Shown in pieces: positions 20,815 to 49,320 of a stretch of DNA of 64,000 bases (position 1 is its first letter; every line of letters starts with the position of its first letter). The notes below the pieces were generated by a model. The model made no database searches, was not told the DNA's origin, and saw only the letters and a program-made list of their open reading frames with translations. Origin of the DNA: Anaerolineae bacterium (GTDB taxonomy: Bacteria > Chloroflexota > Anaerolineae > JAAEKA01). Made by a program: the position numbers and the translations under genes. The stretch spans positions 62,226 to 126,225 of the forward strand of contig JBAQCH010000024.1 in assembly GCA_049294015.1 (NCBI GenBank), written 5' to 3'.

Positions 20815-20900
20815 TCCGTAGCATGTAGCACGTAACACGTAACACGTAACTCGGAACCCGGAATGCACTCCGCATACACGCTCTGGGTTACGGATTACGC
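20815..20900 (+). repeat. GTAAC-type palindromic heptamer-repeat element (gtaacacgtaacacgtaactcgg...ccgg...gggttacggattacgc)
   Basis: Intergenic, between the Rieske gene and sufU; same family as 22996-23068 and 36793-36880. Confidence 0.55.
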
Positions 20901-21275
20901 ATCACTGTCCTCAACGCCCCACACGCCCGCCTTGAGCGCCTTCAACGGCAGCAGCGCGCATTTCAAACGCACCGGGCCGATCTCGATGCCCAGCAGGTCC
21001 AGGATATCGTCCTTGGTCCAGCTTTTCAGCTCGTCCAGCGACTTGCCGACGATCTCCTCGGTCATCATGGAGGCCGAGGCCTGGCTGATGGCGCAGCCGC
21101 GGCCGTCGAAGGCCGCGTCCACCACCACGCCATCCTCGATCTTCAGCTCCAGCGTGATCTCGTCGCCGCAAAAGGGGTTGTGGTCGAAGTGGCTGATGTC
21201 GGGGTTGTCCAGATGACCCTTGTGGCGCGGATATTTGTAGTGGTCGAGGATAGCCTCGCGGTAGAGTGCGTCCAT
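20895..21275 (-). CDS. sufU: SufU/IscU-like (NifU N-terminal family) Fe-S scaffold/sulfur acceptor
   Basis: MDALYREAILDHYKYPRHKG...NPFCGDEITL...DGRGCAISQASASMMTE; start refined within the longer ORF. Confidence 0.8.
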   Translation of the reverse strand: MDALYREAILDHYKYPRHKGHLDNPDISHFDHNPFCGDEITLELKIEDGVVVDAAFDGRGCAISQASASMMTEEIVGKSLDELKSWTKDDILDLLGIEIGPVRLKCALLPLKALKAGVWGVEDSDA

Positions 21276-21282
21276 AGTTCTC

Positions 21283-22506
21283 CTACATTCCCAACACCGA
21301 ATGCACTTTGTCCAGCGCCATGACCAGCCGGTCGATCTCGTCGAAGGTGTTGTAGAAGTAGAAGCTGGCGCGGGCGCTGGCCGGGATGCCGTAGAAGTCG
21401 TGGATCGGCTGGGCGCAGTGATGACCGGCGCGGATGGCGATGCCTTCGGCGTCCAGGATGGCCGCGGTGTCGTGCGGGTGGATCTCGCCCAGGGTGAAGG
21501 CCACTGCGCCGCCGCGCTGATCAGGGCCAGGCCCCAGGATGCGCAGCCCCTCGACGCGACCAAGCTGCTCCATGGCATAGCTCACCAGCTCGTGCTCGCG
21601 CTGCTGCACGAAGTCCATGCCCAGGCTGGTCAGGTAGTCCACCGCCGCGCCCAGGCCGATCACTTCGGCAATCGCTGGCGTGCCGGCCTCGAACTTCCAG
21701 GGCAGCGTGTTCCAGCGCGAGCCCTCCAGCCGAACCTCGCGGATCATATCGCCGCCGCCCATGAAGGGGGGCATGGTCTCCAGCAGCTCACGCCGGCCGT
21801 AGAGCACGCCGCTGCCGGTCGGCCCGCACATCTTGTGGCCTGAGAAGACCAGGAAGTCGCAGTTGAGCGCCTGCACGTCCACCGGCAGATGGGGCACGCT
21901 CTGCGCGCCGTCGACCAACGCCAGCGCGCCCACGCTGTGCGCCCGCGCCACCAGTTCCGCCGCCGGGTTGATGGTGCCCAGCACGTTGGACATGGCCACG
22001 AAGGCGAACAGCTTGGTGCGCTCGGTCAGGAGTTCATCCAGCAGGTCCAGGCGCAGCGTGCCTTGCGCATCCAGCGGCACGTACCGCAGCGTCGCGCCGG
22101 TGCGCGCAGCAATGATCTGCCAGGGCACGATGTTAGCGTGGTGCTCCATCTGCGTGATCAGCACCTCGTCGCCCGGCTTGAGCGCGTCCAGTCCCCAGCT
22201 ATAGGCCACCAGGTTGACGGCCTCGGTGGCGTTGCGGGTGAAGATCACCTGCTTGGAGCTGGGCGCGTTGATGAAGCGGGCGATGCGGCCGCGCGCGGTT
22301 TCATACAGCGCCGTCGCCTCCTCGCTCAGCGTGTGGACGCCGCGGTGGACGTTGGCGTTGCGCAGGTGGTAATAGTCGTCCATGGCCTGCAGGACCGCCA
22401 GCGGCTTCTGCGAGGTCGCCGCGTTGTCAAGATAGGCGAGGGGCTTGCCGTTGATCTCCCGCTGTAGAATGGGAAAGTCGGCGCGGATGGCTTCGATGCT
22501 TCTCAC
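21283..22506 (-). CDS. sufS: Cysteine desulfurase SufS (class V aminotransferase)
   Basis: 407 aa; ..YLDNAATSQKP.., PLP-Lys region and catalytic Cys loop typical of SufS. Confidence 0.9.
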   Translation of the reverse strand: MRSIEAIRADFPILQREINGKPLAYLDNAATSQKPLAVLQAMDDYYHLRNANVHRGVHTLSEEATALYETARGRIARFINAPSSKQVIFTRNATEAVNLVAYSWGLDALKPGDEVLITQMEHHANIVPWQIIAARTGATLRYVPLDAQGTLRLDLLDELLTERTKLFAFVAMSNVLGTINPAAELVARAHSVGALALVDGAQSVPHLPVDVQALNCDFLVFSGHKMCGPTGSGVLYGRRELLETMPPFMGGGDMIREVRLEGSRWNTLPWKFEAGTPAIAEVIGLGAAVDYLTSLGMDFVQQREHELVSYAMEQLGRVEGLRILGPGPDQRGGAVAFTLGEIHPHDTAAILDAEGIAIRAGHHCAQPIHDFYGIPASARASFYFYNTFDEIDRLVMALDKVHSVLGM

Positions 22507-22574
22507 AATAGGCGCTCACAGGAGACCTTCGAGGTTTTCGGCAACCTCGAAGGTCTGGGGCTAATCCAGACGTT

Positions 22575-22985
22575 CTAGGAAGGGTTGATCTTGTGACAGG
22601 CGTGCTTGACCGTATCAAAAGCCAGGGTAGCACAGCGCTGGCGGGCGCTGGCGATGTCAGGCCCAAGCCTGTCCAACAGGGGCTCCGCCGTAGCGGCGTC
22701 GATCTGGGCCAGGGTCAACCCATTTAGCATCTCCATGGCCATGGACGCGGCCGCCTGGCTGATGGTGCAGCCCTGGCCCTGGAAGGCCAGCGCTACCGGC
22801 CCGCCGTTGCCGGCGGCCCGCACGTAAACCGTCACCACGTCGCCGCAGGCCGGATTGTTGCCCGTGTGGACGACATCAGCCGGCTCCAACAAGCCGAAAT
22901 GGCGTGGATGCTCGAAGTGGTCGACGATCAGGTCGATGCGTTCTTGGCGGTCCATGGCGCTGCTCTGTTGCATTGAACGATGCAT
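22575..22985 (-). CDS. Second SufU/NifU-like Fe-S scaffold paralog (start may be an internal Met)
   Basis: ..VDHFEHPRHFG...NPACGDVVTV...QGQGCTISQAAASMAME; Cys triad conserved. Confidence 0.7.
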   Translation of the reverse strand: MHRSMQQSSAMDRQERIDLIVDHFEHPRHFGLLEPADVVHTGNNPACGDVVTVYVRAAGNGGPVALAFQGQGCTISQAAASMAMEMLNGLTLAQIDAATAEPLLDRLGPDIASARQRCATLAFDTVKHACHKINPS

Positions 22986-22995
22986 ACCGAGTCAT

Positions 22996-23068
22996 GTGTA
23001 ACGAGTAACCCGTAACCCGGAAGCGCGCACGCGCAATTCCGGGTTACGTTTTACTCGTTACTCGTTGC
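22996..23068 (+). repeat. GTAAC-type palindromic element (gtaacgagtaacccgtaacccgg-aagcgcgcacgcgcaatt-ccgggttacgttttactcgttactcg)
   Basis: Near-perfect inverted repeat, intergenic between the second sufU and the rhodanese gene. Confidence 0.55.
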
Positions 23069-23116
23069 GGCAGTTCAGCCGATTATCGCGCCTCTCTCAG
23101 CAGCGGGCAAATAGCG

Positions 23117-23962
23117 TCACTTCTCGATCGGCACGCCCACCAGGTTGCCCCACTCGGTCCAACTGCCGTCGTAGTTGCGCACGTTGGGGTAGCCCAGCAG
23201 GTAGGTCAGCACAAACCAGGTGTGGCTGGAGCGTTCGCCGATGCGGCAGTAGGCCACCACCGTATCGTCGGGCTTGAGGCCCTGCTCGGCTTCGTAGATG
23301 GCCCGCAGCTCGTCGGCGCTCTTGAAGGTCCCATCGGCGTTGGCCGCCCGCGCCCAAGGCACGTTCTTCGCGCCGGGGATGTGCCCGCCGCGCAGCGCGC
23401 CCTCCTGCGGGTAGTTGGGCATGTGCAGCAGCTCGCCGCTGTATTCAGCCGGCGAGCGCACATCCACCAGCGGCAGGCCGGCCTGCACGTGGGCCAGCAC
23501 CTGGTCGCGGTAGGCGCGAATCTTGTAGTCGGCGCGCGCCTGGGCCCGGTAGGCAGTCTTGGGATAGGTTGGCGTTACCTTGGTCATGGGCCGCCCCTCG
23601 GCCTCCCACTTCGCGCGGCCGCCATCCATCACCTTGGCGTGGGCGTGGCCGAAGAGTTGGAAGACCCAGAACGCGTAGGTGGCCCACCAATTGTTCTTGT
23701 CGCCGTAGAAGACCACCGTCGTGTCGTTACCGATGCCGTTGATGGCCATCAGCACCTCGAAATCCTGACGGGTCAGGTAGTCGCGGCGTACAGCGTCATT
23801 CAGGTCTTTTTGCCAGTCGATCTGCACGGCGCCGGGGATGTGGCCCAGGTCGTACAGCAGGATGTCTTCGTTGGACTCAACGATACGGATGGTGGGATCG
23901 TTCAGGTGGTCAGCGACCCACTGGGTAGAGACCAGGACATCAGGAATTGTATAGCCTTTCAT
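23117..23962 (-). CDS. Tandem-rhodanese thiosulfate/3-mercaptopyruvate sulfurtransferase
   Basis: Active-site [11 protein letters not shown]; two rhodanese domains; start refined to MKGYTIPDV. Confidence 0.8.
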
Positions 23963-24111
23963 AGCCAGGAAGAACCTCCTCATCAAGCGAATAAGAACAC
24001 CGGCCACAGATCATGCAGAACACACAGACGCACCATTTCCGGTCAATCCGTGCCATCCGCGCAATCTGTGGCCGGTGTTTGGTCATGCTATGCCTTGGCC
24101 AGAAGCGCAGG

Positions 24112-25446
24112 CTAGCCGCCGATAATCTTGCGAGCGATGCTTTGCTCCAGCTTGCGGCGCACGCCCTCCACGGGCACACGGTTGAGCACTTCCTCGAAGA
24201 AACCGGTGACGATCATCTGCTCGGCCTGATACTGGCTCAGGCCGCGCGCCATCAGGTAAAAGAGATACTCTGGCTCGATCTTGCTGACGGTGGCGCCGTG
24301 GGTGCAGCGCACGTCGTCGGCCTCGATCTCCAGGCCGGGGATGCTGTCGGCGCGAGCGCGTTTGTCCAGCACCAGGTTCTCGTTCTTCTGGTAGGCGTCG
24401 GTTTTCTGCGCGTGGGGCCAGACCTTGATGCTGCCGGAGTAAACCGAGCGCGAGCGGCCGCGCAGCGCGCCCTTGAACAGCAGGTCGCTGGTGCAGTGAT
24501 CGGCCATGTGGTTCTGCATGGTGTGATGGTCCAGGTGCTGCCGGCCGCTGGGGAAGTAGAAGCCCAACAGCTCGCCGTGCCCGCCCCGCTCCAGCAGTTG
24601 CATCTCCAGGTTGATCTTGCTCAGCCGGCTGCCCCACGAGCTGGTCATCCAGTTGATCTGAGCGTCGCGGCGCATCTGAGCCTGCTGGGTGCTGAAGTGC
24701 CAGGTATTGGTGTTCCAGTCCTGGCTGTGCAGGTAACGCACCACGGCGCCGGCTTGGGCGAAGATCTCGACGACGCCGCTGTGGAAGGCTGCGCCCTCGC
24801 CGTCGCTCACCATCTCGTCGACGTAGGTGACCTGCGAGTTCTCCTCAGCGATGATCAGCGTGTGGGCGAAGTCTGCCAGGCCGCCGCTGGCAGCCGTGAT
24901 GCCGTAGAGCGGCAGCTCGATCTGGACGTTGCGCGGCACATAGAGCACCGCGCCGCCCGTGACCAGGGCTGCGTGCAGGGCGGTGAACTTGTCGGCGTCC
25001 ACCGCCACGTTGTTGGTCATGAAGTAGCGCTGAATCAGCTCCGGATGCTGGCGGATGGCCGTGTTCAGGTCGGTGAAAAGCACACCCTTGGCGGTCAGTT
25101 CGCTGCTCAGCTCATGATAGCGCACAGCGCCGTTTTCTGTCACCAGCGCGCCGGCCGACTCAACCGACTCCATCTCTTCACGCAGGTAAGCGGGCAGGTC
25201 GGCGCGGTCGCCGCGCTCGGGCCCCGCGGCGTTGGGTAGACGAAAATCGTCGATACTGAGGCCGGTCAGCCGGGTACGACGCCACTCTTCCTCTTCGCCC
25301 GTGGGCCAGGCGATCTCTTCGTAAAAGCGCCACGCGCGCCGGCGCAGGTCCAGGAACCACTCCGGCTCGCGCCGCTGGGCCGAAAGCCCCTCGACGCCAG
25401 CCTGGTTCAAGCCAACTTCTGGCAATGTCATTGTTTTTACAGTCAT
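24112..25446 (-). CDS. sufD: Fe-S cluster assembly protein SufD
   Basis: SufB/D-family C-terminal beta-helix region; GGAG RBS 8 nt before the ATG at 25446. Confidence 0.85.
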   Translation of the reverse strand: MTVKTMTLPEVGLNQAGVEGLSAQRREPEWFLDLRRRAWRFYEEIAWPTGEEEEWRRTRLTGLSIDDFRLPNAAGPERGDRADLPAYLREEMESVESAGALVTENGAVRYHELSSELTAKGVLFTDLNTAIRQHPELIQRYFMTNNVAVDADKFTALHAALVTGGAVLYVPRNVQIELPLYGITAASGGLADFAHTLIIAEENSQVTYVDEMVSDGEGAAFHSGVVEIFAQAGAVVRYLHSQDWNTNTWHFSTQQAQMRRDAQINWMTSSWGSRLSKINLEMQLLERGGHGELLGFYFPSGRQHLDHHTMQNHMADHCTSDLLFKGALRGRSRSVYSGSIKVWPHAQKTDAYQKNENLVLDKRARADSIPGLEIEADDVRCTHGATVSKIEPEYLFYLMARGLSQYQAEQMIVTGFFEEVLNRVPVEGVRRKLEQSIARKIIGG

Positions 25447-25456
25447 TTTGATCTCC

Positions 25457-25570
25457 GGGAAGGAAACAGGTAGACAAGTAAACAAGTAGACAAGGGGCAG
25501 GTTGCAGATTTCGCTCGCTTCCTTGTCTTCCCATTCCGCCCCTTGTTTCCTTGTCTACCTGTCTACTTGT
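25457..25570 (+). repeat. GTAGACAAG-type palindromic heptamer-repeat element (caggtagacaagtaaacaagtagacaagg ... ccttgtctacctgtctacttgtctac)
   Basis: Long inverted repeat between sufD and sufB; related element at 38395-38528. Confidence 0.55.
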
Positions 25571-26986
25571 CTACCCAATACTGCCTTCCATCTGCAACTG
25601 GATCAGGCGGTTCATCTCGACGGCGTATTCCATCGGCAGCTCTTTGACCATTGGCTCGATGAAGCCGCTGACGATCATCGTCGCCGCCTCTTCCTCGCCC
25701 AGGCCGCGGCTCATCAGGTAGAAGATCTGCTCTTCATTGACCTTGCTGACGCTGGCCTCGTGGCCCACCTGCACGTCCTGCTCGTCGATCTCGATGTAGG
25801 GGTAGGTGTCAGAGCGGCTGTGGTCGTCCAGCAGCAGCGCATCGCACACTACCGTCGACTTGGAGCCGCTTGCGCCCTTGGCTACCTTGAGCAGGCCGCG
25901 GTAGGAAGCGCGGCCGCCGTTCTTGCTGATCGACTTGGAGATGATCTTGGAGGAGGTGTTGGGCGCGCCATGCACCACCTTGCCGCCCGCGTCCAGCGTC
26001 TGTCCGTGGCCGGCGAAGGCGATGGAGAGGATCTCGCCGTGGGCTCGCGGTCCCATCATGTAGACCGCCGGGTACTTCATCGTCACCTTCGAACCTAGAT
26101 TCGCGTCGATCCACTCCATGGTGGCGCCGGCCTCGGCGATGGCGCGCTTGGTGACCAGGTTGTAGACGTTGTTGGACCAGTTCTGGATCGTGCTGTAGCG
26201 GCAGCGGCCGCCTTCCTTGACGATGATCTCCACCACGGCGCTGTGCAGCGAATCCGAGGCGTAGATCGGCGCGGTGCAGCCTTCGACGTAGTGGACGCTG
26301 GCGCCCTCTTCGACGATGATCAGCGTGCGCTCGAACTGGCCCATGTTCTGGGCGTTGATGCGGAAGTACGCCTGCAAGGGGATATCCACGTGGACGCCCT
26401 TGGGCACGTAGACGTAGCTGCCGCCCGACCAGACAGCCGAATTCAGGGCAGCGAACTTGTTGTCTGACGGCGGGATGACGGAGCCAAAGTACTCCTTGAA
26501 GACATCCTCGTGCTCGCGCAGGCCGCTGTCGGTATCCAGGAAGATCACGCCCAGCTTGGTCCACTGCTCTTGCAGCGAATGATAGACCACCTCGGACTCG
26601 TACTGTGCGCCGACGCCGGCCAGGAAGCTGCGTTCGGCCTCGGGGATGCCCAGGCGGTCGAAGGTGTCCTTGATGCTATCCGGGATGTCGTCCCAGCTCT
26701 TGCCCTGCTTCTCGGTGGGCCTGAGGTAGTAGTAGATGTTGTCGAAGTCGATCTCGCTCAGGTCGGCGCCCCAGGTGGGCATCGGCTTCGACAGGAAGAT
26801 GTCCAGGGACCGATGGCGGAACTCGCGCATCCAGTCGGCCTCGTTCTTCATGTCGCACATCTGATCGATGACCTCGTGACTCAGACCCCGCTTCGATTTG
26901 AAAACGAACTCTTCCGGCTTGCTGAAGCCATATTGATACTCATCTTTTACGCCCGCAAGGGCTTCGCGGTCACTGGTAGTAGCCAT
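25571..26986 (-). CDS. sufB: Fe-S cluster assembly protein SufB
   Basis: 471 aa, [12 protein letters not shown]...; highly conserved SufB sequence throughout. Confidence 0.9.
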
Positions 26987-26994
26987 ACTGTTCT

Positions 26995-27177
26995 CCAGTT
27001 CGTACTCGGTAGTGGTAAATTGGTAGATTGGTGGATTGGTCGGTTGGCAGGGTTGGCGGGGTTGGCAGAGAGGTAGATTGGCAGAGTAGTCAAAGCAATC
27101 AGAAAAGCTGCATTTTGACTGACCCAACATGCCTCCGGCGTACCAATTTACCAATCTACCAATCTACCAGTTCCTTG
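26995..27177 (+). repeat. GGTAGATTGG / CCAATCTACC-type palindromic heptamer-repeat element
   Basis: ggtagattggtggattggtcggttggcagggttggcggggttggcagagaggtagattgg ... ccaatttaccaatctaccaatctacc; intergenic between sufB and sufC. Confidence 0.55.
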
Positions 27178-28008
27178 CTAAACCGCCACCAACTCGGCCT
27201 CGCCAAACTCGTCCTTGACCCACTGGTAGCCCTGGGACTCCAGTTGATGGGCCAGCTCCGCGCCGCCGCTGATGACCACGCGGCCGTTGTAGAAAACGTG
27301 GACGAAGTCGGGCTGGACGTAGTTGAGGATGCGCTGATAGTGGGTGATCAGCAGAATGCCCAGGCCGGGCCCGGCCAGCTTGTTGACGCCGTCGGAGACC
27401 ACGCGCAGCGCGTCGATGTCCAGGCCGCTGTCGGTCTCGTCCATGATCGCGATCTTGGGCTGAAGCATGGCCATCTGCAGGATCTCGGCCCGCTTCTTTT
27501 CGCCGCCGCTGAAGCCCTCGTTGAGGTAGCGCTTGGCGAAGCTGCGATCGACGTTATACTCATCCATCTTGTCCAGCAGCTCTTTGCGGAAGTCGCGCAT
27601 CGGCATCAGGTTGGAGCCGACGACGCCCGACTTGCTGCCGCCGTTGCTGGCCGCGGCCTGGTCGGTGTAGCCGCGCACGTTGCTGACCGCCGTGCGCAGG
27701 AAGTTGGCCATGCTGACGCCCGGCACAGCCACTGGATACTGGAAGGCCAGGAAAAGGCCGCGCCGCGCCCGCTCGTTGGGCTCCAGCTCCAGGATGCTTT
27801 CGCCGTCCAGCAGGATGTCGCCGCCGGTGACGGTGTAATGGGGATGGCCCATGATCGCGTAGGAGAGAGTGCTCTTGCCAGAGCCGTTGGGGCCCATCAG
27901 CGCATGCACTTCGCCCTGGCGGATTGTCAGATTGACGCCCTTCAGCACTTCTTTTTCGCCGTCGTTGACGGTTACGTGCAGGTCTCGGATCACTAGCTCG
28001 CTGGTCAT
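27178..28008 (-). CDS. sufC: Fe-S cluster assembly ATPase SufC
   Basis: Walker [13 protein letters not shown] signature LSGGEKKR, Walker [13 protein letters not shown]. Confidence 0.9.
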
Positions 28009-28110
28009 AATGCTTTCAGAAACTCCTTGGTGCGTTGTTTTGTCTTTGCGACAGCGGGCAGACATCTACTTGCTCAAGCTGGCTGCCCTCAGTTATCAGG
28101 GTCGATACGG

Positions 28111-28788
28111 CTACTGTGGACTGACGGCCGGCAGCGGCCCCGCAGAAGCCAACGGTCGGGTGTTGACCACGAAATGGCAGCTATGATGGCCATCCTGGAT
28201 ACAATCGCCCAGGGTTACGTCAGTTCCCAGGGCTTGCGAGAACGCGCTGCGCTCCATCTCACAGATATCGCGGTGTACCGAGGCGATCTCGTGGTAGGGA
28301 CAGTTGTACTCGCGCAAAATGATGACATCGTCGCCGTGTTCGAGGTCGACCCGGATGCCGCGCCGGTCCAACACGGTCGACAGTTCTCGCGTCCGGTCGC
28401 CCAGCGCCTGGCCCTTGATCTGGCGACGATACTGCACCGCCAGCTTGCTGCCCACCCGGTTGAGCAGGTAGCGCAGCTTGTCGGCGCCCTCAGTCTCCAT
28501 CAACTCGTGGATCAGGTCCAAGGCCAGCTCGTCGTTGTAGCAGGCAAACAGGCTGTGTGAGCGCTCGGTCAGTTGGTAGAGGTTGCGCGGCCGGCCGACG
28601 CCTTGCCGCTCCTTGGACATGGTCACCAGGCCATCGGCTGTCAGGCTGGCCAGTTGCTGGCGCACGGCCGTAGCCGTCACGCCACTGGCCTGCTCCAGCT
28701 CTTTGATGCTGGCCGGGCCGTTGCGCAGCAGAAACTCAAGAATCTGCCCTGCGGGTGTGGAAGTATCTTGGGAGCTCAAGCCGGTCAT
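28111..28788 (-). CDS. sufR: SufR-type transcriptional regulator (N-terminal wHTH, C-terminal Cys-rich Fe-S sensing region)
   Basis: wHTH ILEFLLRNGPASIKELEQASGVTATAVRQQL; C-terminal CPYHE...C..E...C...C motif. First gene of the suf operon. Confidence 0.7.
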   Translation of the reverse strand: MTGLSSQDTSTPAGQILEFLLRNGPASIKELEQASGVTATAVRQQLASLTADGLVTMSKERQGVGRPRNLYQLTERSHSLFACYNDELALDLIHELMETEGADKLRYLLNRVGSKLAVQYRRQIKGQALGDRTRELSTVLDRRGIRVDLEHGDDVIILREYNCPYHEIASVHRDICEMERSAFSQALGTDVTLGDCIQDGHHSCHFVVNTRPLASAGPLPAVSPQ

Positions 28789-28833
28789 ATCATTGCCTCG
28801 GTGTCAACCAATGTCAGTCAGTAAGTGAACGAG

Positions 28834-28863
28834 AGTATAACACCCCATCTTTGATTTTGTCAA
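28834..28863 (-). promoter_or_regulatory. Near-consensus sigma70-type promoter for the sufR operon (TTGACA-17/18-TATACT on the minus strand)
   Basis: Minus-strand read TTGACAaaatcaaagatggggtgTTATACT, about 45 nt upstream of the sufR ATG. Confidence 0.5.
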
Positions 28864-28951: not shown

Positions 28952-28970
28952 ATGTTTCTGCGATTTTCGG

Positions 28971-36752: not shown

Positions 36753-36792
36753 GGTGATGTCCTTTCGTTGGTCGATGGGATGGTTCGGTACA

Positions 36793-36880
36793 GTGTAACA
36801 CGTAACACGTAACCCGTAACCCGGAGAGTCTGCGCATGGCGCACATTCCGGGTTACAGGGTTACGCATTACGAGTTACAG
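36793..36880 (+). repeat. GTAAC-type palindromic element (gtaacacgtaacacgtaacccgtaacccgg ... ccgggttacagggttacgcattacgagttac)
   Basis: Intergenic between the PPIase and carboxypeptidase genes. Confidence 0.55.
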
Positions 36881-38386
36881 CCCGTACAGCTCGCCATACT
36901 TGCCCTTCAGATAGGCGATGTAGGGATCGATGGTCAGCGGCGCGCCGGTCACCTGCTCCACCAGCAGCGGCGCAGTGAACTTGCTGCCGTGCTGGTAGAT
37001 GCGCTCGCGTAGCCAGCCGCGCAGGGTGTCGAACTGGCCCTGGGCGATCTGCTCGCCGATCTCTGGATGGGCCGCGTTGGCAGCCTGCCAGAAGGCCGCG
37101 CTCAGGATATTGCCCAGCGTATAGCCCTGGAAGCCGCCGCCGATCTGACTATAGTACCAGTGCATGTCCTGCAAGACGCCATCCCGGTCGTCGGGCACGT
37201 CTACGCCGAGGGCCTCGCGGTAGCTGGCGCGCCAAGCTTCGGGCAAGTCCTTGACGGCCAGTGTGCCCTCCAACAGGGCTAACTCCAGATCGAAGCGGAT
37301 GATGACGTGCAGGTTATAGGTCACCTCGTCGGCGTCGACGCGGACGAGGCTGGGCCGCACCTTGTTGATGGCGCGATAGAAGGCGTCGAGCGGTATTTCG
37401 CCCAACTGCTGCGGGAAGATGGCCTGAAGCTGCGGGTAGTAGTAGCTCCAGAAGGGCCGGCTGCGGCCGACCAGGTTCTCCCACAGCCGCGACTGGCTTT
37501 CATGCACACCGGCCGATGTCCCGCCGCCCAGCGGCGTGCCGCCGAAGGCTGGATTGATACCCTGCTCGTACATGGCATGGCCCGACTCGTGCATGGTCGA
37601 GAAGAGGCCGTCGCCCAGGTCGTCCTCGCGGAAGCGGGTGGTGATGCGCACGTCGCCCGGCCCGAACTTGATCATGAACGGGTGGTGGGTCTTGTCTTGC
37701 CGGCCGCGCTGGAAGTCGTAGCCGAAGCGCTTGACCACATCGACGCCGAAGTCCCACTGCTGTTGCTCAGGATAGTGGCGATAGAGGAACGAGTCGTCGG
37801 GCGCCGGCTGCGCCTGGATCGCCTCCACCAGCGGCGTGAGTTGTTCCCGCAGCGCGGCAAACAGCGGCCGCAGCATGGCCACGGTCATACCGTAGTCGGC
37901 TTCGTTGATCAGCGGGTCAGCGATGTGCCCGCCGGCCGGCCAGCCGAAATACTCAGCTGCGCGGCGGCTGAGCTCCAGCGTCTTTTCCAGCAGCGGCTGC
38001 ATGGCGGCGAAGTCATTCGCCGGTCGCGCCACGGTCCACGCCTGGTAGGAGCGCGCCGCGTGGCTCGACAGTTCAGCTACGAACGCGGGCGGCAGCTTGG
38101 TCGCCCGCTCGTATTCGCGGCGGGTGACGCGAACGAGGCTGGCTTCGTCGTTGTCGTAGGGCAGCGTTTCCTGGTAGGGCTGCAAGTCCTCCAGCAGCTG
38201 GCCCAGCGCGGGAGAGGTGAACTTTTCCTGAGCCAGCCGGCTGAGCGTGGCCAGTTGCTGGCCGCGCGTCTCGGCCCCGCCCGGCGGCATGTAGGTCGCC
38301 TGGTCCCAGTACAACAGCGCCGCGGCCCCATGCAGGTCATACACCTCCTGCAGTCGCGTCTTTAACTCGGTGAGTCTCTCTTGCAT
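36875..38386 (-). CDS. M32 family (Taq-like) metallocarboxypeptidase
   Basis: HESGHAMYEQG zinc motif; approximately 500 aa; start refined to MQERLTEL. Confidence 0.85.
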   Translation of the reverse strand: MQERLTELKTRLQEVYDLHGAAALLYWDQATYMPPGGAETRGQQLATLSRLAQEKFTSPALGQLLEDLQPYQETLPYDNDEASLVRVTRREYERATKLPPAFVAELSSHAARSYQAWTVARPANDFAAMQPLLEKTLELSRRAAEYFGWPAGGHIADPLINEADYGMTVAMLRPLFAALREQLTPLVEAIQAQPAPDDSFLYRHYPEQQQWDFGVDVVKRFGYDFQRGRQDKTHHPFMIKFGPGDVRITTRFREDDLGDGLFSTMHESGHAMYEQGINPAFGGTPLGGGTSAGVHESQSRLWENLVGRSRPFWSYYYPQLQAIFPQQLGEIPLDAFYRAINKVRPSLVRVDADEVTYNLHVIIRFDLELALLEGTLAVKDLPEAWRASYREALGVDVPDDRDGVLQDMHWYYSQIGGGFQGYTLGNILSAAFWQAANAAHPEIGEQIAQGQFDTLRGWLRERIYQHGSKFTAPLLVEQVTGAPLTIDPYIAYLKGKYGELYGL

Positions 38387-38394
38387 GCGTAGTC

Positions 38395-38528
38395 TCCTCA
38401 GGGTTGAGGTAGACAGGTAAACAAGCAGACAAGAAGACAAGGCCGGAACCTGTCCACCTCACCAATCTACCAATCTACCAATCTACCAATTACTTGTCTA
38501 CCAATCTACCAATTACTTGCCTACCTGT
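38395..38528 (+). repeat. Composite palindromic heptamer-repeat element (GTAGACA and CCAATCTACC units)
   Basis: gaggtagacaggtaaacaagcagacaagaagacaagg ... ccaatctaccaatctaccaatctaccaattacttgtctacc ... cctacctgtctacttgtctacttgtctacc. Confidence 0.55.
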
Positions 38529-39221
38529 CTACTTGTCTACTTGTCTACCTGCCTTCACCGTCCGCCGCGTCTGCCGCACAATGCGCACCCAGTTGCGCAT
38601 GTGCGTCCAGGGGTCGATGTGGCTGCCCTGGTCGCCGTAGATGGTGCGGATGGGCACCCCGTCCAGCACGTAGCCGCGCTGCACGCAGGTGACGATCATC
38701 TCGACCTCGAACTCGAAGCCGTGCTCCTGGCTGTCCAGCACGGCCTCGGCCATGCGCCGGCTGAGCAGCCGATAGCCCGACTGGTTGTCCTCGACCCGCT
38801 GGCCCAGCGCCCAGGAGAAGCTCCAGCGGCCCAGGGTGTTGGCCGCGCGGCGGCTCAGCGGCATCTGGCTGAAGTCGCGGCAACCGATCAGCAGGTCGGC
38901 GTGGGTTACAGCCTGCCGCGCCAGAAAGGCCGGAATCTCGGCCGGGTCGTGCTGGCCGTCGGCATCCAGCGTCAGCACAGAGTCATGGCCGTGGGCCAGC
39001 GCCCAACGCAGGCCGGCCCGCAGCGCCGCGCCCTTGCCCTGGTTGGGAATCTGGCGCAGCACCGTCGCGCCGGCAGCCTCGGCCAGCGCGGCCGTGTCGT
39101 CGCGCGAGCCGTCGTCCACCACCAGCGCTGGCAAGTGCTTGAGCGTGGCCGCGATCACCGGCGCGATGCGCTGCGCCTCGTTGTAGGCGGGGATCAGCGC
39201 CAACGGGTTGCAGTGCTCCAT
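38529..39221 (-). CDS. Family 2 glycosyltransferase (dolichol-phosphate mannosyltransferase-like)
   Basis: ..LIPAYNEAQRI...VVDDGSRDDT...LDADGQHDP.. Confidence 0.8.
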   Translation of the reverse strand: MEHCNPLALIPAYNEAQRIAPVIAATLKHLPALVVDDGSRDDTAALAEAAGATVLRQIPNQGKGAALRAGLRWALAHGHDSVLTLDADGQHDPAEIPAFLARQAVTHADLLIGCRDFSQMPLSRRAANTLGRWSFSWALGQRVEDNQSGYRLLSRRMAEAVLDSQEHGFEFEVEMIVTCVQRGYVLDGVPIRTIYGDQGSHIDPWTHMRNWVRIVRQTRRTVKAGRQVDK

Positions 39222-39602: not shown

Positions 39603-42346
<2,744 letters not shown>

Positions 42347-42350
<4 letters not shown>

Positions 42351-42589
42351 GCGGGTACTAATTCCAGCGCATGGACACCCTCTTCTGCTAGCCAGGCAGC
42401 ATACTGCAATGCCTGGCTAATATCCTGTGGCTCCAAGTAAGGGTAATCCTCGATGATTTGCTGTACTGTCATCCCACTGGCAACAAGGTTGACGATCAGC
42501 GAGACCGTAATGCGCATACCGCGGATACATGCCCTGCCACCCATCACCTGCGGATCGAATGTGATTCTGTTGAATCCAAACATGCTCAA
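42347..42589 (-). CDS. DUF433-domain protein (putative antitoxin-like)
   Basis: ..GGRACIRGMRITVSLIV...QIIEDYPYLEPQDI.. DUF433 signature. Confidence 0.65.
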
Positions 42590-42742
42590 CTCCTGTCTTT
42601 CACCCGGAACTTCAAGTCGGTTGCTAGCTAGACTGCGCTAATCGGGTAGCACACATTGTAACACAGTTCTCCAAATGCACCATCTGGAAGGTTCGCGCTC
42701 GCCAGGCGGGTCTCCGAACCGAGCCAACCTAAGATTCGATTG

Positions 42743-43234
42743 CTAAACGCTTCCTAACAGCCACTGCGCCAACGAACGAATTTCGATGGTCATACCATCC
42801 TGTTGGATTGGCTCGGCATTGACCTCGGTCAGAATCAGCCCGCGTTCGAGTCCCAAAGCGCTCATGCCATCGCGTAGTACGCGTATTTTCCGCTCTCGAA
42901 CGCCGCTTTGATCAAGGTTCTGAGCAACCTGGACCAGCATGCGCTGCTCAGGCAGGTAGAAATCGACTTCGAAGCCACCAGGCGTTGTGTAATAGAAGAT
43001 CTCTTGCGTTTGGCGCCGCAACGCCAGGAAGATCACGTTTTAGAGTAAGCGCCCGCTGTTGGGCGAGAACGCGTGGGGCAGGGGCGCTGCGCGCGTTAGC
43101 TGCGCCAACTGATCGCGTGGAATGCCCGTGTCACGCTCCCAGAATCCCTGGGCCTGCTCCAGCAGCATGGCGCGAATCTGGTCTCTCGACCATCTGTTTC
43201 GCCAATAGTTTTCATTCATAATGAAATGATACAC
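42743..43234 (-). pseudogene. Truncated AAA+ ATPase of the DUF4143 family (N- and C-terminal fragments in the same frame, separated by a stop; ATPase core missing)
   Basis: The C-terminal fragment ..EIFYYTTPGGFEVDFYL.. matches the DUF4143 C-terminal motif; the total length of about 160 aa compares with roughly 400 aa expected. Confidence 0.45.
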
Positions 43235-43274
43235 CTAAATGATTTCATTGACAATGAAATCATTTAGGTGTATC
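43228..43274 (+). repeat. 47-bp perfect AT-rich palindrome (23-bp arms gatacacctaaatgatttcattg / caatgaaatcatttaggtgtatc, 1-nt centre)
   Basis: Read directly from the sequence; overlaps the stop of the permease gene and the start of the truncated ATPase. Confidence 0.8.
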
Positions 43275-46467: not shown

Positions 46468-46471
46468 AGCA

Positions 46472-47368: not shown

Positions 47369-47447
47369 GGACTCCGCCTTAGTTGCCGGGCACTTGCACT
47401 GGCGCTGGTATGTAGAGGTCAGGCCTTCAAGTGTCCGGCAACTGTCA

Positions 47448-47801
47448 CTAGGCTTCGAAGCGCTGGATCTCCAGCAGGTAGCCGTTGGGGTCGCGCAGGA
47501 AACAGTGATAGATGTTGTATTTCGGGTTGAGCGCGGGCGGATGCTCGAAGATGACGCCCCGCTCGGCCAGCCGAGCGTGCCAGCCGTCTACGTCCTCGGT
47601 CACCAACGTGATGATGATCCCGGACGGCTGCTGGGGGGCATTGGCGCGCTGGCAGAAGCCCAGCAGGCCCTCCTGGCTGACCTGGTAGATGCGACAGTCG
47701 CCCTGGTCTACGGCCAGCGGCAGGCCCAGCACCTGCTCGTAGAAGCGGGCCGTGGCAGGGAGGTCAGCGGTGTAAAGAAAGGTGATCTGTTGGTCGAACA
47801 T
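47448..47801 (-). CDS. VOC/glyoxalase-bleomycin resistance family protein
   Basis: 117 aa; ..ATARFYEQVLGL...GYLLEI.. fold motif. Confidence 0.8.
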   Translation of the reverse strand: MFDQQITFLYTADLPATARFYEQVLGLPLAVDQGDCRIYQVSQEGLLGFCQRANAPQQPSGIIITLVTEDVDGWHARLAERGVIFEHPPALNPKYNIYHCFLRDPNGYLLEIQRFEA

Positions 47802-47864
47802 AGGTTGCTGCTGATCTTGCGCAGACCCTGCGGGTTTCCGAAATTCGCAGGGTCTTTCGGGATT

Positions 47865-49196
47865 TCAAGAAGCCAGCCCGGCCAGCCCGCGCGGCTCGCG
47901 CACCCAGCGGTGCAGCGCGACCAGGCCGGCCAGACAAAACAGTGCGCTGACGGCAAAGAGCGTATCGTAGCTGCGGGTGGCCAGCCAGGCGCCGATCAGC
48001 GGGCTGGCCATGCCCATCAGGCCCAGCGCAGTGTTGATCAGGCCGGTGTAGGTGGGGCGCAGGTCAGCCGGCGAGAACTCCAGCGTGATCATGGTGCCGG
48101 AAACCACGGCGGCGCCTGTGCCCAGGCCCAGCAGGACGAAGACGACGTAGTACCATGCCGGGGTTGGCGCCTGCCAGGCCAGCAGATAGGCGGCAGTCAG
48201 CAGCGCGCAGCTCAGCTCCAGCGGCAGCTTGTGGCCTTTGCGATCGGCCAAGAAGCCCGCGGCGGCATTGGCGACGGTCTGGCCGATCAACAGCGCCAGC
48301 GTGTACAGGCCGACAACGCCATCGGACACCTGCCAACGAGATACCGCCGCCACCGTCAGGAAACCGGCTCCCATGCCGCCCAGCACCAGCAGCAAACGGG
48401 CCAGGATGAAGCGGCGAAAGTTGCCATCGCTGCGCAAAATCTGTGGCAGTCCGGCCCAGAACTGGCTGTTGCTTTGCCGCGGAGCAGTCACCGCTTGCTC
48501 TGGCTCGCGGGCGAAGGCCAGGAAGGCCCAACTGAGGGTGATGAAGAAAGCTGCCAGCGTGAAGGTGGCCACGAAGTTGGTGGGGAAGACCAGCGTGGCC
48601 AGCAGCCAGGCGCTGAAGGTTGCGCCCAGCGCGCCTGTGCCATTGCCCACGAAGGTGGTGATGCCAAAAAAGCGGCCGCGGCGATCGACTGGAAAGATAC
48701 GGGCCACCAGGTCCTGCCAGGCTGTGGCCACGACGCCCGCGCCCACGGCATGGCCTGCGTAGCCCAGGAAGAAGAGCACCAGAGCCAGCGTTGGCGACTC
48801 GACTGCCAGCAGAGCAGCCAAAGGAAGCAGCCACAGCGGCAGCCGTTCGGTGAAGAAGCCCAGGTTGACCACGACGGGTTTGCGGCGCGGCAGGCGCTGG
48901 ACGGTGTTGGCGGTGAAGAGCTGCGGCAGGAACCAGCCGCTGTTGGCGATCACCGCGATCAAGCCAATGGCGAGCTGGCTGCTGGTCAGCTTGCTGACGA
49001 ACAGCGGCACGATGGTGGCGCTGGACATGAAGCTCAAGCCCAGCCAGAAAGTTGCGCCGTCCAGCAGGTTGAAGGCGAAGTTCCAGGGATAGTTGCGTTC
49101 GACCTCGCGGGCCACATCGAGCGCACTACGCGCGGGCGGGGCAGGGTCGGCGCGCAGCAGGCGGCGCATGGCGGATCGAACGTAGAGGTTGAACAT
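47865..49196 (-). CDS. MFS transporter
   Basis: 12 predicted TM segments; ..[10 protein letters not shown].. loop motif between TM2 and TM3. Confidence 0.75.
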
Positions 49197-49199
49197 AGG

Positions 49200-49320
49200 A
49201 TCGTGGAACGAGGGGCGGGCAGCGTGAAACGTAAAACGTGACCAGAGAGCAGTCTCGGTCACGTTTCACGGTTCACGCCGTACGGCGGACGCGTCTTGGG
49301 AAGCAGCGCGCAGAAGATCC
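49200..49320 (+). repeat. Palindromic element gtgaaacgtaaaacgtgacc-N13-ggtcacgtttcacggttcacg, sharing GTCACGTT/AACGTGAC half-sites with the REP at 58.6 kb
   Basis: Intergenic between the MFS transporter and FadD genes. Confidence 0.5.

What the first reader, a model, noticed from the sequence alone, without database searches (positions are those of the whole stretch)
20815..49320. Family of palindromic heptamer tandem-repeat elements punctuating operons (at least 9 copies in the window)
Intergenic inverted-repeat elements built from short tandem units recur at 20815-20900, 22996-23068, 36793-36880 (GTAACAC/GTAACCC type), at 25457-25570 and 38395-38528 (GTAGACA type), at 26995-27177 and within 38455-38528 (GGTAGATT/CCAATCTACC type) and at 49200-49320 (GTGAAACGT...ACGTGACC type), plus the intragenic copy at 17040-17170. 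They sit between almost every gene of the suf operon and predict long imperfect hairpins. They may act as REP/BIME-like mRNA stabilisers, terminators or attenuators that set differential expression within the operon. The 49.2-kb variant shares GTCACGTT/AACGTGAC half-sites with the RAYT-associated REP, so the RAYT at 58.0 kb may mobilise this family.
Basis: seen in the sequence. Interest (0 to 1): 0.5.

Follow-up and report, generated by a model that had tools for sequence, protein, structure and literature searches.

The report
Stop-codon-anchored microsatellite hairpins between operon genes

Summary
Seven intergenic elements (20.8, 23.0, 25.5, 27.1, 36.8, 38.5 and 49.2 kb) are inverted pairs of 7- or 8-nt tandem units. 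Six fold far better than shuffles (z -3.3 to -10.3); one is eroded. The eighth tract, at 17.1 kb, is an in-frame repeat tract in a protein linker, not a hairpin.

They are not RAYT/REP elements. The RAYT's own GTAG-headed REPs are confined to 57.98-59.15 kb and match nothing else.

Related suf operons (SufS 85-99% identical) carry the same unit type at the same junction. Copy number differs even within the species.

Polarity is nearly fixed: the stop-containing arm (GTAA/GTAG/GTGA) lies 5', the open arm 3' (28:0, 10:≤1, 31:3 in three censuses). In 4 of 7 window elements the upstream gene's stop codon is a unit of the array.

They lie inside the suf transcript and lack U-tracts.

Best reading: slippage-driven microsatellite palindromes that evolve in place and act, if at all, as intercistronic RNA stem-loops. 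Evidence for an RNA-level role is weak.

The closest precedent is the paired GGGAATC heptamer repeats of Xanthomonas. I rate this a new variant of a known kind, of moderate interest.

The parts
20812..20900 (-). nifU>Rieske element. On the mRNA strand the 5' arm is GCGTAAT-CCGTAAC-CC, and it contains the nifU stop codon TAA (20895-20897). The 3' arm is (GTTACGT)n at 20815-20850. The copy is eroded and asymmetric.
   Evidence: Fold z is only -1.45. GTAAY units occupy the same junction in L004, L130 and L132.
22996..23068 (-). rhodanese>sufU hairpin with GTAACGA/GTAACCC units on both arms. It lies about 10-20 nt downstream of a conserved promoter-like site.
   Evidence: z = -7.3. The same unit type is found in L002, L004, L130, L132 and L005.
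23082..23110 (-). Context: internal promoter-like site TTGCCC-17-GATAAT, just upstream of the 23.0-kb hairpin.
   Evidence: It is conserved in the orthologous spacers of all seven other genomes compared (ungapped identity 0.61-0.95 in six of them against a background of 0.42).
25458..25578 (-). sufB>sufD hairpin, (GTAGACAA)n ... (TTGTCTAC)n. The sufB stop codon TAG (25571-25573) is the first unit of the 5' arm and is base-paired in the stem.
   Evidence: z = -6.8. The junction and unit type are conserved in 8 genomes. The same-species strain L127 has two more units on the 5' arm and one more on the 3' arm.
27008..27174 (-). sufC>sufB hairpin, (GGTAGATT)n ... (AATCTACC)n, with a loop of about 100 nt. 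The loop includes an unpaired 9-mer array (27042-27068).
   Evidence: MFE of the full spacer is -62 to -64 kcal/mol. The unit type is conserved in L004, L130, L131 (5' arm only), L002 and L132.
36790..36882 (-). carboxypeptidase>cyclophilin hairpin with GTAAC units. The carboxypeptidase stop codon TAA (36875-36877) lies in the first unit.
   Evidence: z = -10.3. An independent assembly, L001, carries an identical copy.
38405..38552 (-). Composite glycosyltransferase>carboxypeptidase element. The 5' side mixes GTAGACAA and GGTAGATT units; the 3' arm has TTGTCTAC units only. The last 7 codons and the stop codon (38529-38531) of the glycosyltransferase are encoded by the array.
   Evidence: z = -5.4.
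49218..49282 (-). AMP-ligase>MFS hairpin with GTGAAAC/GTAAAAC/GTGACC units. It starts 44 nt after the upstream stop codon.
   Evidence: z = -9.5. The same unit family occurs at other junctions in L131 and L030.
17028..17154 (-). In-frame repeat tract of the same unit families (GGTAGATT/GGGAAATT, then CCGCTCA and GGTCACC-type units). It encodes the linker between the Ligase_CoA_2 and ATP-grasp_5 domains of an ADP-forming acetyl-CoA synthetase. It has no complementary arm, and the units lie in their stop-free orientation.
   Evidence: Relatives differ in this linker, and P0148 carries HRSP(I/A)TD-type and LV(D/E)W(K/E)IG-type peptide repeats there. Overall protein length varies from 701 to 769 aa among close relatives.
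28834..28863 (-). Context: suf operon promoter-like site (TTGACA-18-TATACT with an extended TG).
20036..20049 (-). Context: canonical intrinsic terminator (GC-rich stem followed by a T-run) after sufT. It shows that the organism uses ordinary terminators, which differ from the repeat hairpins.
   Evidence: It is conserved in the orthologous spacers.

Best explanation
The elements are self-complementary microsatellites. Each is an array of 7- or 8-nt units, grown by replication slippage, that begins at or near the stop codon of the upstream gene. It is followed, after a variable loop, by an inverted array of the complementary units.

Shown:
- They are inherited vertically at fixed gene junctions and change mainly by gain and loss of units, independently on the two arms.
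- They are not copied around by the nearby RAYT.
- The polarity is nearly always 5'-(units containing TAA/TAG/TGA)n - loop - (stop-free complement)n-3'. Because 7 and 8 share no factor with 3, a translating ribosome meets a stop within three units in any frame.
- They lie inside the suf transcription unit and lack U-tracts.

Inferred:
- Stop-containing polarity is what lets such unstable arrays sit on a gene end without changing the protein.
- The elements are co-transcribed and fold into 25-60-bp stem-loops whose base holds the upstream stop codon and ends 14-40 nt before the next start codon.
- Their effect, if any, is post-transcriptional: a barrier or processing site (3'-exonuclease block or RNase III target) that sets the stability of mRNA segments. 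The stem may also hold the stop codon and the next ribosome-binding site together however long the spacer grows.
For: 1. Real and non-random: 13 period-7/8 tracts against 0.95 in shuffles. Arms are 83-93% complementary. z is -3.3 to -10.3 for 6 of 7 elements.

2. In place, not mobile. The same unit family sits at the same suf junction in up to 8 genomes, although 4-fold sites are only 72% (L002, L004) and 58% (L005) identical. Arms keep 0.7-1.0 ungapped identity while loops fall to background.

3. Slippage. The window and L127 (same species) have identical spacers at eight of the ten junctions compared, including the other three repeat-hairpin junctions. They differ at sufB>sufD, where L127 has two more units on the 5' arm and one more on the 3' arm, and at sufU>sufS, which was replaced by recombination. 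Spacers range from 102 to 395 nt at one junction. Arm copy numbers are not positively correlated (r = -0.36, n = 28).

4. Polarity.
- GGTAGATT arrays: partner downstream 28, upstream 0, of 65.
- GTAAC arrays in Chloroflexota: 10 of 25 have a downstream partner; with the stricter pattern, at most one Chloroflexota locus showed an upstream partner.
- Family-blind census of 774 kb: stops in the 5' arm only 31, in the 3' arm only 3. Leaving out the two query families gives 10 against 3.
- The GTAAC family has the opposite G/C skew to the GTAG families, so polarity follows the stop triplet rather than G-richness.

5. Stop-codon anchoring. The upstream stop codon is a unit of the array in 4 of 7 window elements. 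Of 77 GGTAGATT arrays, 36 end an open frame of at least 100 codons, and 29 of those do so at the array's own TAG (offsets 2, 10, 18, 26).

6. Inside the transcript and not terminators: promoter at 28863-28834, terminator at 20049-20036, and no U-tracts after the hairpins.

7. A lineage trait. Paired arrays occur in Chloroflexota MAGs labelled Anaerolineae, Caldilineales, Chloroflexia or simply Chloroflexota (10/25) against 2/56 in other phyla.

8. Precedent: about 70-75 convergent pairs of GGGAATC heptamer arrays per Xanthomonas genome. They lie between co-directional ORFs, close to the upstream ORF, are conserved in position, vary in length and are transcribed (PMC4692102).
Against: - No evidence for selection at the RNA level. 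Stems hold 109 G.U pairs on the mRNA strand against 150 on the antisense strand, and the antisense strand folds better in 16 of 27 cases.
- Hairpins are dispensable at some junctions. L131 keeps only the 5' array at sufC>sufB. L002 and L132 have a 16-nt spacer at sufD>rhodanese.
- Arms are about as conserved as synonymous sites, not clearly more.
- Three of the 7 window elements start 10-52 nt after the stop codon.
- Polarity is strong but not absolute; two real reversed cases are L154 and L060.
- How the second, inverted arm arises is not shown.
- Why the same few unit families recur at unlinked loci is unexplained by slippage alone.
- No expression data were available.
Confidence: 0.55

Rival explanations
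1. The identity is the same (microsatellite palindromes evolving in place) but there is no function. They are tolerated by-products of slippage in a lineage prone to 7-8-nt slippage. Complementarity is kept by DNA-level processes such as fold-back or template-switch copying between arms. Polarity is pure survivorship: only stop-containing arrays can sit on a gene end.
For: - No wobble or stability asymmetry between the mRNA strand and the antisense strand.
- Arm copy numbers are uncorrelated.
- Peripheral units differ between the arms, for example L002 GTAGGAA against TTGCCTAC.
- Elements are lost or replaced at some junctions.
- The same unit families expand in a coding linker, where no hairpin is possible.
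- None occur in the low-GC type I R-M island at 1-15.6 kb, which I take to be horizontally acquired.
- No function was found for the Xanthomonas analogue.
Against: - Several unrelated hairpin types occupy equivalent suf junctions, which hints that a hairpin as such is favoured there.
- Both arms switched together from GTAAY to GTGAT units in L131.
- Stems remain long and stable (z down to -10) despite rapid unit turnover.
- No DNA-level arm-copying mechanism has been demonstrated.
Confidence: 0.3
2. The arrays are multivalent binding sites for a protein. This could be an RNA-binding protein that reads UAG/UAA/UGA triplets spaced 7-8 nt apart (in the manner of HutP or TRAP antiterminators), or a DNA-binding protein. 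The array itself, not the hairpin, would be the functional unit.
For: - One-sided (GTAACNC)n arrays are widespread in other phyla, and in several loci I read by eye they sit just upstream of a start codon in sense orientation. This resembles the TAACTGA repeats for which a post-transcriptional regulator was proposed (PMC4679880).
- L131 keeps only the 5' array at sufC>sufB.
- Unit families recur at unlinked loci.
Against: - At least six different unit sequences occur in one window, so one protein could not read them all.
- The only common core is G-T-purine.
- No candidate protein was identified.
- In a formed hairpin the triplets would be base-paired and hidden.
Confidence: 0.07
3. One reading: the elements are REP/BIME-like and are mobilised by the RAYT at 58.0 kb.
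For: - A RAYT is present (Y1_Tnp, 38 bits).
- Many units start with GTAG, as REP heads do. The polarity of the pairs matches the head-to-head REP dimers of PMC3733652, which have GTAG at the outer ends.
- The 49.2-kb element shares GGTCACGTT/AACGTGACC with one REP type.
Against: - Both REP types are confined to the flanks of the RAYT and have no match elsewhere at up to 3 mismatches.
- The elements have no unique short palindrome behind an unpaired GTAG head. Their GTAR motif is repeated and paired.
- Position and unit type are conserved at orthologous junctions, which argues against recent transposition.
- By my own rough arithmetic, the shared 9-mer has about a 0.2 chance of arising across the elements by coincidence.
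- The GTAAC and GTGA families lack GTAG altogether.
Confidence: 0.04
4. The elements are transcription terminators or attenuators, or phase-variable switches, that set expression of the downstream gene through changes in copy number.
For: - The hairpins are stable and lie between genes.
- Copy number varies within the species at sufB>sufD.
- An RNase III-dependent switch driven by a simple-sequence repeat is known in Haemophilus (PMC12721329, listed).
Against: - None has a U-tract, whereas the organism's real terminators do.
- The genes involved are housekeeping Fe-S assembly genes, not surface or contingency genes.
- In the co-directional cases, changes in unit number alter neither the reading frame nor promoter spacing.
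Confidence: 0.04

Closest known systems
Paired (convergent) GGGAATC heptamer simple-sequence repeats of Xanthomonas campestris and X. citri (Rehm et al. 2015, PMC4692102)
   Same: - Heptamer tandem arrays are strongly over-represented in intergenic DNA.
- Most lie between co-directional ORFs and close to the upstream ORF (about 28 nt against 160 nt to the next ORF).
- About 70-75 cases per genome occur as two arrays in convergent orientation that can form a stem-loop.
- The same junctions are occupied in related species, but length and sequence vary.
- They are transcribed, and their function is unknown.
   Different: - Xanthomonas has one G-rich unit capable of forming a G-quadruplex and containing no stop triplet. 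Here there are many unit families (GTAACNC, GTAGACAA, GGTAGATT, GTGAAAC, GGTGATC and others) without G-tracts.
- Here each junction has its own conserved unit type.
- Here the stop-containing arm lies 5', and the gene's own stop codon is often a unit of the array.
- The host phylum differs (Chloroflexota).
Long simple sequence repeats of prokaryotes (Mrazek et al. 2007, as summarised in PMC4679880). This includes the cyanobacterial STRR heptamers, the TAACTGA repeats of Beggiatoaceae and the (GATAGRA)n satellites of Chloroflexus (PMC6749651).
   Same: - Units of 5-11 nt, with heptamers the commonest.
- Intergenic bias.
- Attributed to polymerase slippage.
- TAACTGA also carries stop codons in its forward orientation, which limits where it can lie.
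   Different: Those are described as one-sided direct arrays. MacGregor found one indirect repeat among 170 sets. Here the typical form is an inverted pair that makes a long hairpin. In my scan that paired form was common only in Chloroflexota (10/25 against 2/56).
REP/BIME and REPIN elements with their RAYT transposases (GTAG-tagged REPs; PMC3733652, PMC3116915)
   Same: - Extragenic and palindromic.
- Mostly downstream of genes, between co-directional or convergent ORFs, and co-transcribed.
- Head-to-head dimers carry GTAG at the outer ends.
- Proposed to act as mRNA stabilisers.
   Different: - A REP is a single 20-40-bp imperfect palindrome behind an unpaired GTAG head. It is dispersed as near-identical copies and clusters around its RAYT gene.
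- The window holds exactly such REPs at 57984-59152, and they are unrelated in sequence to the repeat hairpins.

Membership tests
REP/REPIN (RAYT-associated) | A single short (20-40 bp) imperfect palindrome behind a conserved, unpaired GTAG or CGTC head | tested here: not met
   The arms are arrays of 7-8-nt units. The GTAR motif recurs in every unit and is base-paired. The GTAAC and GTGA families lack GTAG.
REP/REPIN (RAYT-associated) | Copies flank the cognate RAYT gene and match the dispersed copies | tested here: not met
   The RAYT at 58038-58562 is flanked by two REP types with 9 copies each, all within 57984-59152. Neither matches anything else in the window at up to 3 mismatches.
REP/REPIN (RAYT-associated) | Dispersal as near-identical copies, i.e. 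recent mobility | tested here: not met
   The same unit type sits at the same junction in genomes with 58-72% identity at 4-fold sites. Whole elements are not alignable between junctions. No whole-genome census was possible.
Paired heptamer simple-sequence repeats (Xanthomonas GGGAATC type) | Head-to-tail units of about 7 nt, at least 2 copies, with an intergenic bias | tested here: met
   All but one tract lie between genes.
Paired heptamer simple-sequence repeats (Xanthomonas GGGAATC type) | Two arrays in convergent orientation close together, able to form a stem-loop | tested here: met
   Polarity 28:0 and 31:3.
Paired heptamer simple-sequence repeats (Xanthomonas GGGAATC type) | The junction is conserved between related species while length and sequence vary | tested here: met
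   up to 8 genomes, 102-395 nt at sufB>sufD, and a difference in unit number within the species.
Paired heptamer simple-sequence repeats (Xanthomonas GGGAATC type) | A G-tract unit able to form a G-quadruplex, with a preference for four units | tested here: not met
   The units GTAACNC, GTAGACAA, GGTAGATT and GTGAAAC have no GGG runs. The similarity is in architecture, not in the G4 property.
Intrinsic (Rho-independent) terminator | A GC-rich stem followed directly by a U-tract | tested here: not met
   The terminator scan finds only 28950-28920 and 20049-20036 in the suf region and none at the repeat hairpins. The sequences after the 3' arms lack T-runs.
MITE | Terminal inverted repeats with target-site duplications, and many similar copies | tested here: inconclusive
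   I did not search formally for target-site duplications. Orthologous conservation and junction-specific units argue against this family. Other repeats that do look MITE-like occur in L002 and L132.
Known structured RNA families (Rfam 15) | A match at the gathering score | tested here: not met
   No hits anywhere in the window.

The most novel reading that the evidence does not exclude
These would be a Chloroflexota-wide class of 'length-neutral' intercistronic zippers. The microsatellite supplies the stop codon of the upstream gene at the base of a long stem, and the other side of the stem ends just before the next ribosome-binding site. The terminating ribosome would then be handed across the hairpin to the next cistron, as in termination-reinitiation or shunt-like coupling. 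RNase III could alternatively cut there to uncouple the cistrons. Unit number would be free to drift. Junction-specific unit sequences would stop hairpins of one mRNA from pairing with each other. That would be a new way of organising polycistronic translation in bacteria.
Probability: 0.12. Interest if true: 0.75.

Novelty: new variant of a known kind. Interest (0 to 1): 0.5.

Why it matters
Three general rules emerge that, as far as my six full-text searches of the paper library showed, have not been stated for bacterial microsatellites:
- the stop-containing arm is nearly always 5';
- the array often supplies the upstream gene's stop codon;
- each junction keeps its own unit family across species.

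If these hold genome-wide, they make a long-standing puzzle testable: why heptamer repeats are so abundant in some bacterial genomes, and why they come in inverted pairs. One explanation on offer is a simple constraint. Only unit lengths that share no factor with 3, and that contain a stop triplet, can expand against a gene end without harm.

There are practical consequences too:
- Gene callers will misplace C-termini and start codons at these sites.
- Assemblers may collapse the arrays.
- The arrays are ready-made strain markers for uncultured Chloroflexota.
- The same units create variable protein linkers.

If the hairpins do process or stabilise mRNA segments, they would be a major layer of operon regulation in a poorly studied phylum.

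Tried and rejected
1. Rfam gathering scan of the whole window: no hits. tRNA scan: none.

2. RAYT/REP link: rejected.

3. Terminator reading: rejected.

4. Strand-asymmetry test for RNA-level selection, comparing G.U pairs with A.C mismatches and the mRNA strand with the antisense strand. It found no asymmetry, and if anything the antisense strand folds slightly better. The result is inconclusive and mildly against RNA-level selection.

5. Co-expansion of the two arms: not found (r = -0.36). The unit counts are crude, and some elements were counted from both strands.

6. Conservation of arms against loops. A first gapped-alignment attempt was invalid because the gap settings made everything match. 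I redid it ungapped: arms 0.7-1.0, loops at background. The arms are not clearly more conserved than 4-fold sites (0.58-0.72), so purifying selection is not demonstrated.

7. Gene-context classification of elements from metagenome contigs, using a strict coding filter. The numbers were too small and the gene calls too rough to compare convergent, divergent and co-directional contexts.

8. Formal covariation counting on aligned orthologous hairpins. I did not attempt it, because the register of tandem units makes the alignments ambiguous.

9. Literature: six full-text searches found no description of paired repeat hairpins in Chloroflexota. They turned up only the Xanthomonas, Beggiatoaceae and Chloroflexus-satellite papers.

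10. 32578-32597, which TRF reports as period 7, is just the overlap between the end of a histidine-kinase gene and the start of a response-regulator gene. It is not an element of this type.

Full report
**What the window is.** It has 62% G+C. SufS homologues at 74-85% identity come from MAGs labelled Anaerolineae, Caldilineales or Chloroflexota. The nearest named genome is 'Anaerolineae bacterium clx_CAG2' (GCA_014155705.1; 93% SufS identity). Genes from 15.7 to 52 kb lie almost all on the minus strand. Pfam identifies a suf operon in this order:
- a sufR-like regulator, 28111-28788
- sufC, 27178-28008
- sufB, 25571-26986
- sufD, 24112-25446
- rhodanese, 23117-23962
- sufU, 22575-22985
- sufS, 21283-22506
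- a nifU-like gene, 20895-21275
- a Rieske protein, 20457-20777
- sufT, 20133-20441

A near-consensus promoter lies at 28863-28834 and a canonical GC-stem plus T-run terminator at 20049-20036. Everything between them is therefore very probably one transcription unit.

**Checking the observation.** There are 13 tracts against 0.95 expected from shuffles. The inverted-repeat search pairs them into arms of 22-35 nt at 83-93% complementarity. Folding z-scores are -7.3 (23.0 kb), -6.8 (25.5 kb), -3.3 (27.1 kb, truncated stretch), -10.3 (36.8 kb), -5.4 (38.5 kb) and -9.5 (49.2 kb). The 20.8-kb copy reaches only -1.45 and is eroded. The two 38.4-38.5-kb entries are one composite element. The 17.1-kb tract has no complementary arm. 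Independent assemblies of the same species, from five samples, reproduce the elements base for base, so they are not assembly artefacts.

**Comparison with relatives.** I fetched orthologous suf loci spanning 85-99% SufS identity: L002, L004, L005, L126-L132, plus the more distant L007. Identity at 4-fold sites to the window is 0.72 for L002 and L004 and 0.58 for L005 and L007. The spacer table shows the same unit family at the same junction:
- GGTAGATT/AATCTACC at sufC>sufB, in 7 of 8 genomes
- GTAGACAA/TTGTCTAC at sufB>sufD, in 8 of 8
- GTAACNN at rhodanese>sufU, in 6 of 7 species-level lineages
- GTAAYNC at nifU>Rieske, in 4 of 7

Loops are unalignable, with ungapped identity at background, while arms keep 0.7-1.0. 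Lengths vary widely, from 102 to 395 nt at sufB>sufD.

Within the species, the window and L127 have identical spacers at eight of the ten junctions compared. At sufB>sufD, L127 has two extra units on the 5' arm and one on the 3' arm. The sufU>sufS spacer is a wholesale replacement by recombination.

In L131 both arms of the nifU>Rieske element have switched together from GTAAY/RTTAC to GTGAT/ATCAC units. Elements can also be lost. L131 keeps only the 5' array at sufC>sufB. L002 and L132 have 16 nt at sufD>rhodanese, where L005 has a 274-nt repeat hairpin and four other genomes have an unrelated palindrome.

This is the pattern of fast slippage-driven turnover at vertically inherited sites, not of recent transposition.

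**The RAYT idea.** ORF 58038-58562 is a Y1 transposase (PF01797). It is flanked by classical GTAG-headed REPs of two types, GTAGGTCCGGCTACCAGCCGGAC and GTAGGTCACGTTATCAACGTGAC. They are arranged as head-to-head doublets: one doublet at 57984-58044 and 8.4 tandem doublets at 58593-59152. Each type has 9 copies, all in that interval, and no other match at up to 3 mismatches. The 49.2-kb hairpin shares only GGTCACGTT and its complement with one REP type. My own rough arithmetic puts the chance of such a match at about 0.2 across the elements. The elements fail the defining REP features (see the membership table).

**Wider distribution.**
One-sided arrays of this heptamer occur in many phyla; in several loci I read by eye they sit just before a start codon.
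- An inverted partner within 200 nt downstream is present in 10 of 25 Chloroflexota arrays but only 2 of 56 arrays from other phyla. The Chloroflexota MAGs are labelled Anaerolineae, Caldilineales, Chloroflexia or simply Chloroflexota.
- A metagenome scan for (GGTAGATT)2GG also hit its limit at 120 stretches, mostly on contigs of about 63% G+C.

**Polarity.**
- For GGTAGATT arrays the complementary array lies downstream in 28 of 65 cases and upstream in none.
- For the GTAAC family it lies downstream in 10 of 25 Chloroflexota arrays. With the stricter pattern, at most one Chloroflexota locus showed an upstream partner.
- A family-blind census of 774 kb found 44 paired repeat hairpins. Stop triplets occur in the 5' arm only in 31, in the 3' arm only in 3, in both arms in 4 and in neither in 6.
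- Leaving out the two families used as queries gives 10 against 3, and one of the 3 is an AT-dinucleotide artefact. This subset brings in further unit families: GATGAAY, GGTGATC, GTGAAAC, GTATGAA and GGTTGAA.
- The GTAAC family has a C-rich 5' arm and the GTAG families a G-rich one. The polarity therefore follows the stop triplet, not base skew.

**Anchoring on stop codons.** On the mRNA strand the upstream stop codon is itself a unit of the array in 4 of 7 window elements:
- sufB ends ...ATT GGG [TAG] ACAAG TAG ACAGG TAG...
- the carboxypeptidase ends ...GGG CTG [TAA] CTCG TAA TGCG TAA CC...
- nifU ends ...GTGATGCG [TAA] TCCG TAA CCC
- the last seven codons and the stop of the glycosyltransferase are written by GTAGACAA units.

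In those four the stop codon is paired in the base of the predicted stem. Of 77 GGTAGATT arrays in metagenome contigs, 36 end an open frame of at least 100 codons, and 29 of those do so at the array's own TAG (offsets 2, 10, 18, 26). This figure is only rough, because long spurious open frames are common in high-G+C DNA. Since 7 and 8 share no factor with 3, any frame meets a stop within three units, so changes in copy number cannot extend the upstream protein by more than a few residues. The 3' arm ends 14-40 nt before the next start codon, and the ribosome-binding site lies outside the stem.

**The intragenic tract.** 17028-17154 encodes the linker between the Ligase_CoA_2 and ATP-grasp_5 domains of an ADP-forming acetyl-CoA synthetase. 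It is built from GGTAGATT/GGGAAATT units, followed by CCGCTCA and GGTCACC-type units in their stop-free orientation, and is identical in the same-species contig L126. Distant homologues are a uniform 696-700 aa, while close relatives range from 701 to 769 aa. Their linkers differ in length and sequence. P0148, for example, has HRSP(I/A)TD-type heptapeptide repeats (three heptamers of DNA each) and LV(D/E)W(K/E)IG-type repeats (three octamers each); some of the overall length variation lies outside the linker. The same unit families therefore also generate variable protein linkers.

**Does it act as RNA?** The elements are inside the operon, lack U-tracts, and would form 25-60-bp stems. It is established knowledge from REP/BIME and from RNase III sites in polycistronic mRNAs that such structures block 3' exonucleases or are cleaved. 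The one strand-specific test available gave no support. G.U pairs number 109 on the mRNA strand against 150 on the antisense strand, and the antisense strand folds better in 16 of 27 spacers. Arm copy numbers are not positively correlated, and arms are about as conserved as synonymous sites. In favour of some benefit, unrelated hairpin types occupy equivalent junctions in different genomes, and stems stay stable despite unit turnover. I therefore hold the identity and evolutionary mode with good confidence and the RNA-level role as an inference.

**Comparison with what is known.**
- The closest precedent is the GGGAATC heptamer repeat of Xanthomonas. There are about 185 arrays per genome. In about 70-75 cases two arrays lie close together in convergent orientation. 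They lie between co-directional ORFs about 28 nt from the upstream ORF, occupy conserved junctions, vary in length, are transcribed, and have no known function (PMC4692102).
- Prokaryotic long simple sequence repeats are dominated by heptamers (summarised in PMC4679880).
- TAACTGA repeats carry stops in their forward orientation.
- Chloroflexus aurantiacus has (GATAGRA)n satellites (PMC6749651).
- Six full-text searches found no description of paired, stop-anchored repeat hairpins in Chloroflexota.

**What is new here.** Many unit families occur in one genome. Each junction keeps its own conserved family. The stop-containing arm is nearly always 5'. The array supplies the upstream gene's stop codon.

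**Verdict.** The feature is real and typical of the lineage. It is a new variant of a known kind (paired heptamer or octamer microsatellites), of moderate interest.

Noticed in passing
window 1-15627: A low-GC (50-58%) defence island: HsdM (1-2070), YhcG/DUF1016 nuclease (about 2100-3092), HsdS (2920-4359), an unannotated 1182-aa ORF (4356-7904), GmrSD (8188-10293), a Schlafen/AlbA_2 protein (10381-12033) and HsdR (12334-15627). It contains no 7/8-nt repeat hairpins although it has spacers of 88-300 nt.
   Followed up: partly
window 57984-59152: A RAYT (Y1_Tnp, 58038-58562, minus strand) flanked by GTAG-headed REP doublets of two alternating types. Upstream of it they form an 8.4 x 66-bp tandem array. 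This is a classical REP/RAYT unit in a Chloroflexota genome.
   Followed up: yes
window 23082-23110 (minus strand): A promoter-like site, TTGCCC-17-GATAAT, inside the suf operon between rhodanese and sufU. It is conserved in the orthologous spacers of all seven other genomes compared. It would put the 23.0-kb hairpin at the very 5' end of a sufU-sufS transcript.
   Followed up: partly
window 20093-20121: A direct 10-mer repeat, (GAGAGGAACT)x3 on the mRNA strand and Shine-Dalgarno-like, between the sufT stop codon and the operon terminator. It is conserved in L004, L130 and L132. Its function is unknown.
   Followed up: no
window 23996-24079: A non-repeat palindrome (GGCCACAGAT...ATCTGTGGCC) in the sufD>rhodanese spacer. 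It is conserved in L004, L130 and L131, absent from L002 and L132 (16-nt spacer), and replaced by a 274-nt repeat hairpin in L005.
   Followed up: partly
window 22507-22574 (sufU>sufS spacer): A hairpin, AGACCTTCGAGGTT...AACCTCGAAGGTCT, shared with L130 and partly with L132. The otherwise near-identical same-species contigs L126-L128 carry an unrelated 64-nt sequence here, which points to recombination between strains.
   Followed up: no
window 43228-43274 and 41976-43234: A perfect 23+23-nt palindrome with a 1-nt centre, next to two short ORFs (42743-43036 and 43040-43234) that I took by eye for fragments of an ATPase gene. A small gene pair at 41976-42589 looks by eye like a DUF433/DUF5615 toxin-antitoxin pair. 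None of these ORFs was scanned against a family library. The segment has about 54% G+C.
   Followed up: no
L002 5189-5417, 12091-12364, 14029-14382; L132 12479-12752: Other dispersed repeat families occur in the suf spacers of relatives. One is an element of about 90 nt, CACGATTGTTGTCTCACGCAAAGGCGCAAAGACC...; it has 3 tandem copies in one L002 spacer. The other is a GGGGAAGACTTCCGAAGTCT... palindrome. These look like true MITE- or REP-like mobile repeats, unlike the repeat hairpins.
   Followed up: no
L009-L087 (non-Chloroflexota loci): One-sided (GTAACNC)n arrays of 3 to 14 units occur in Bacteroidota, Proteobacteria, Planctomycetota and other phyla, often directly upstream of a start codon in sense orientation. 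This resembles the TAACTGA repeats of Beggiatoaceae. The same heptamer thus recurs across many phyla.
   Followed up: partly
window 27042-27068: A 9-mer array, (GGTTGGCAG)x3 on the plus strand, inside the sufC>sufB element with no complementary partner. It is G-rich on the antisense strand.
   Followed up: no
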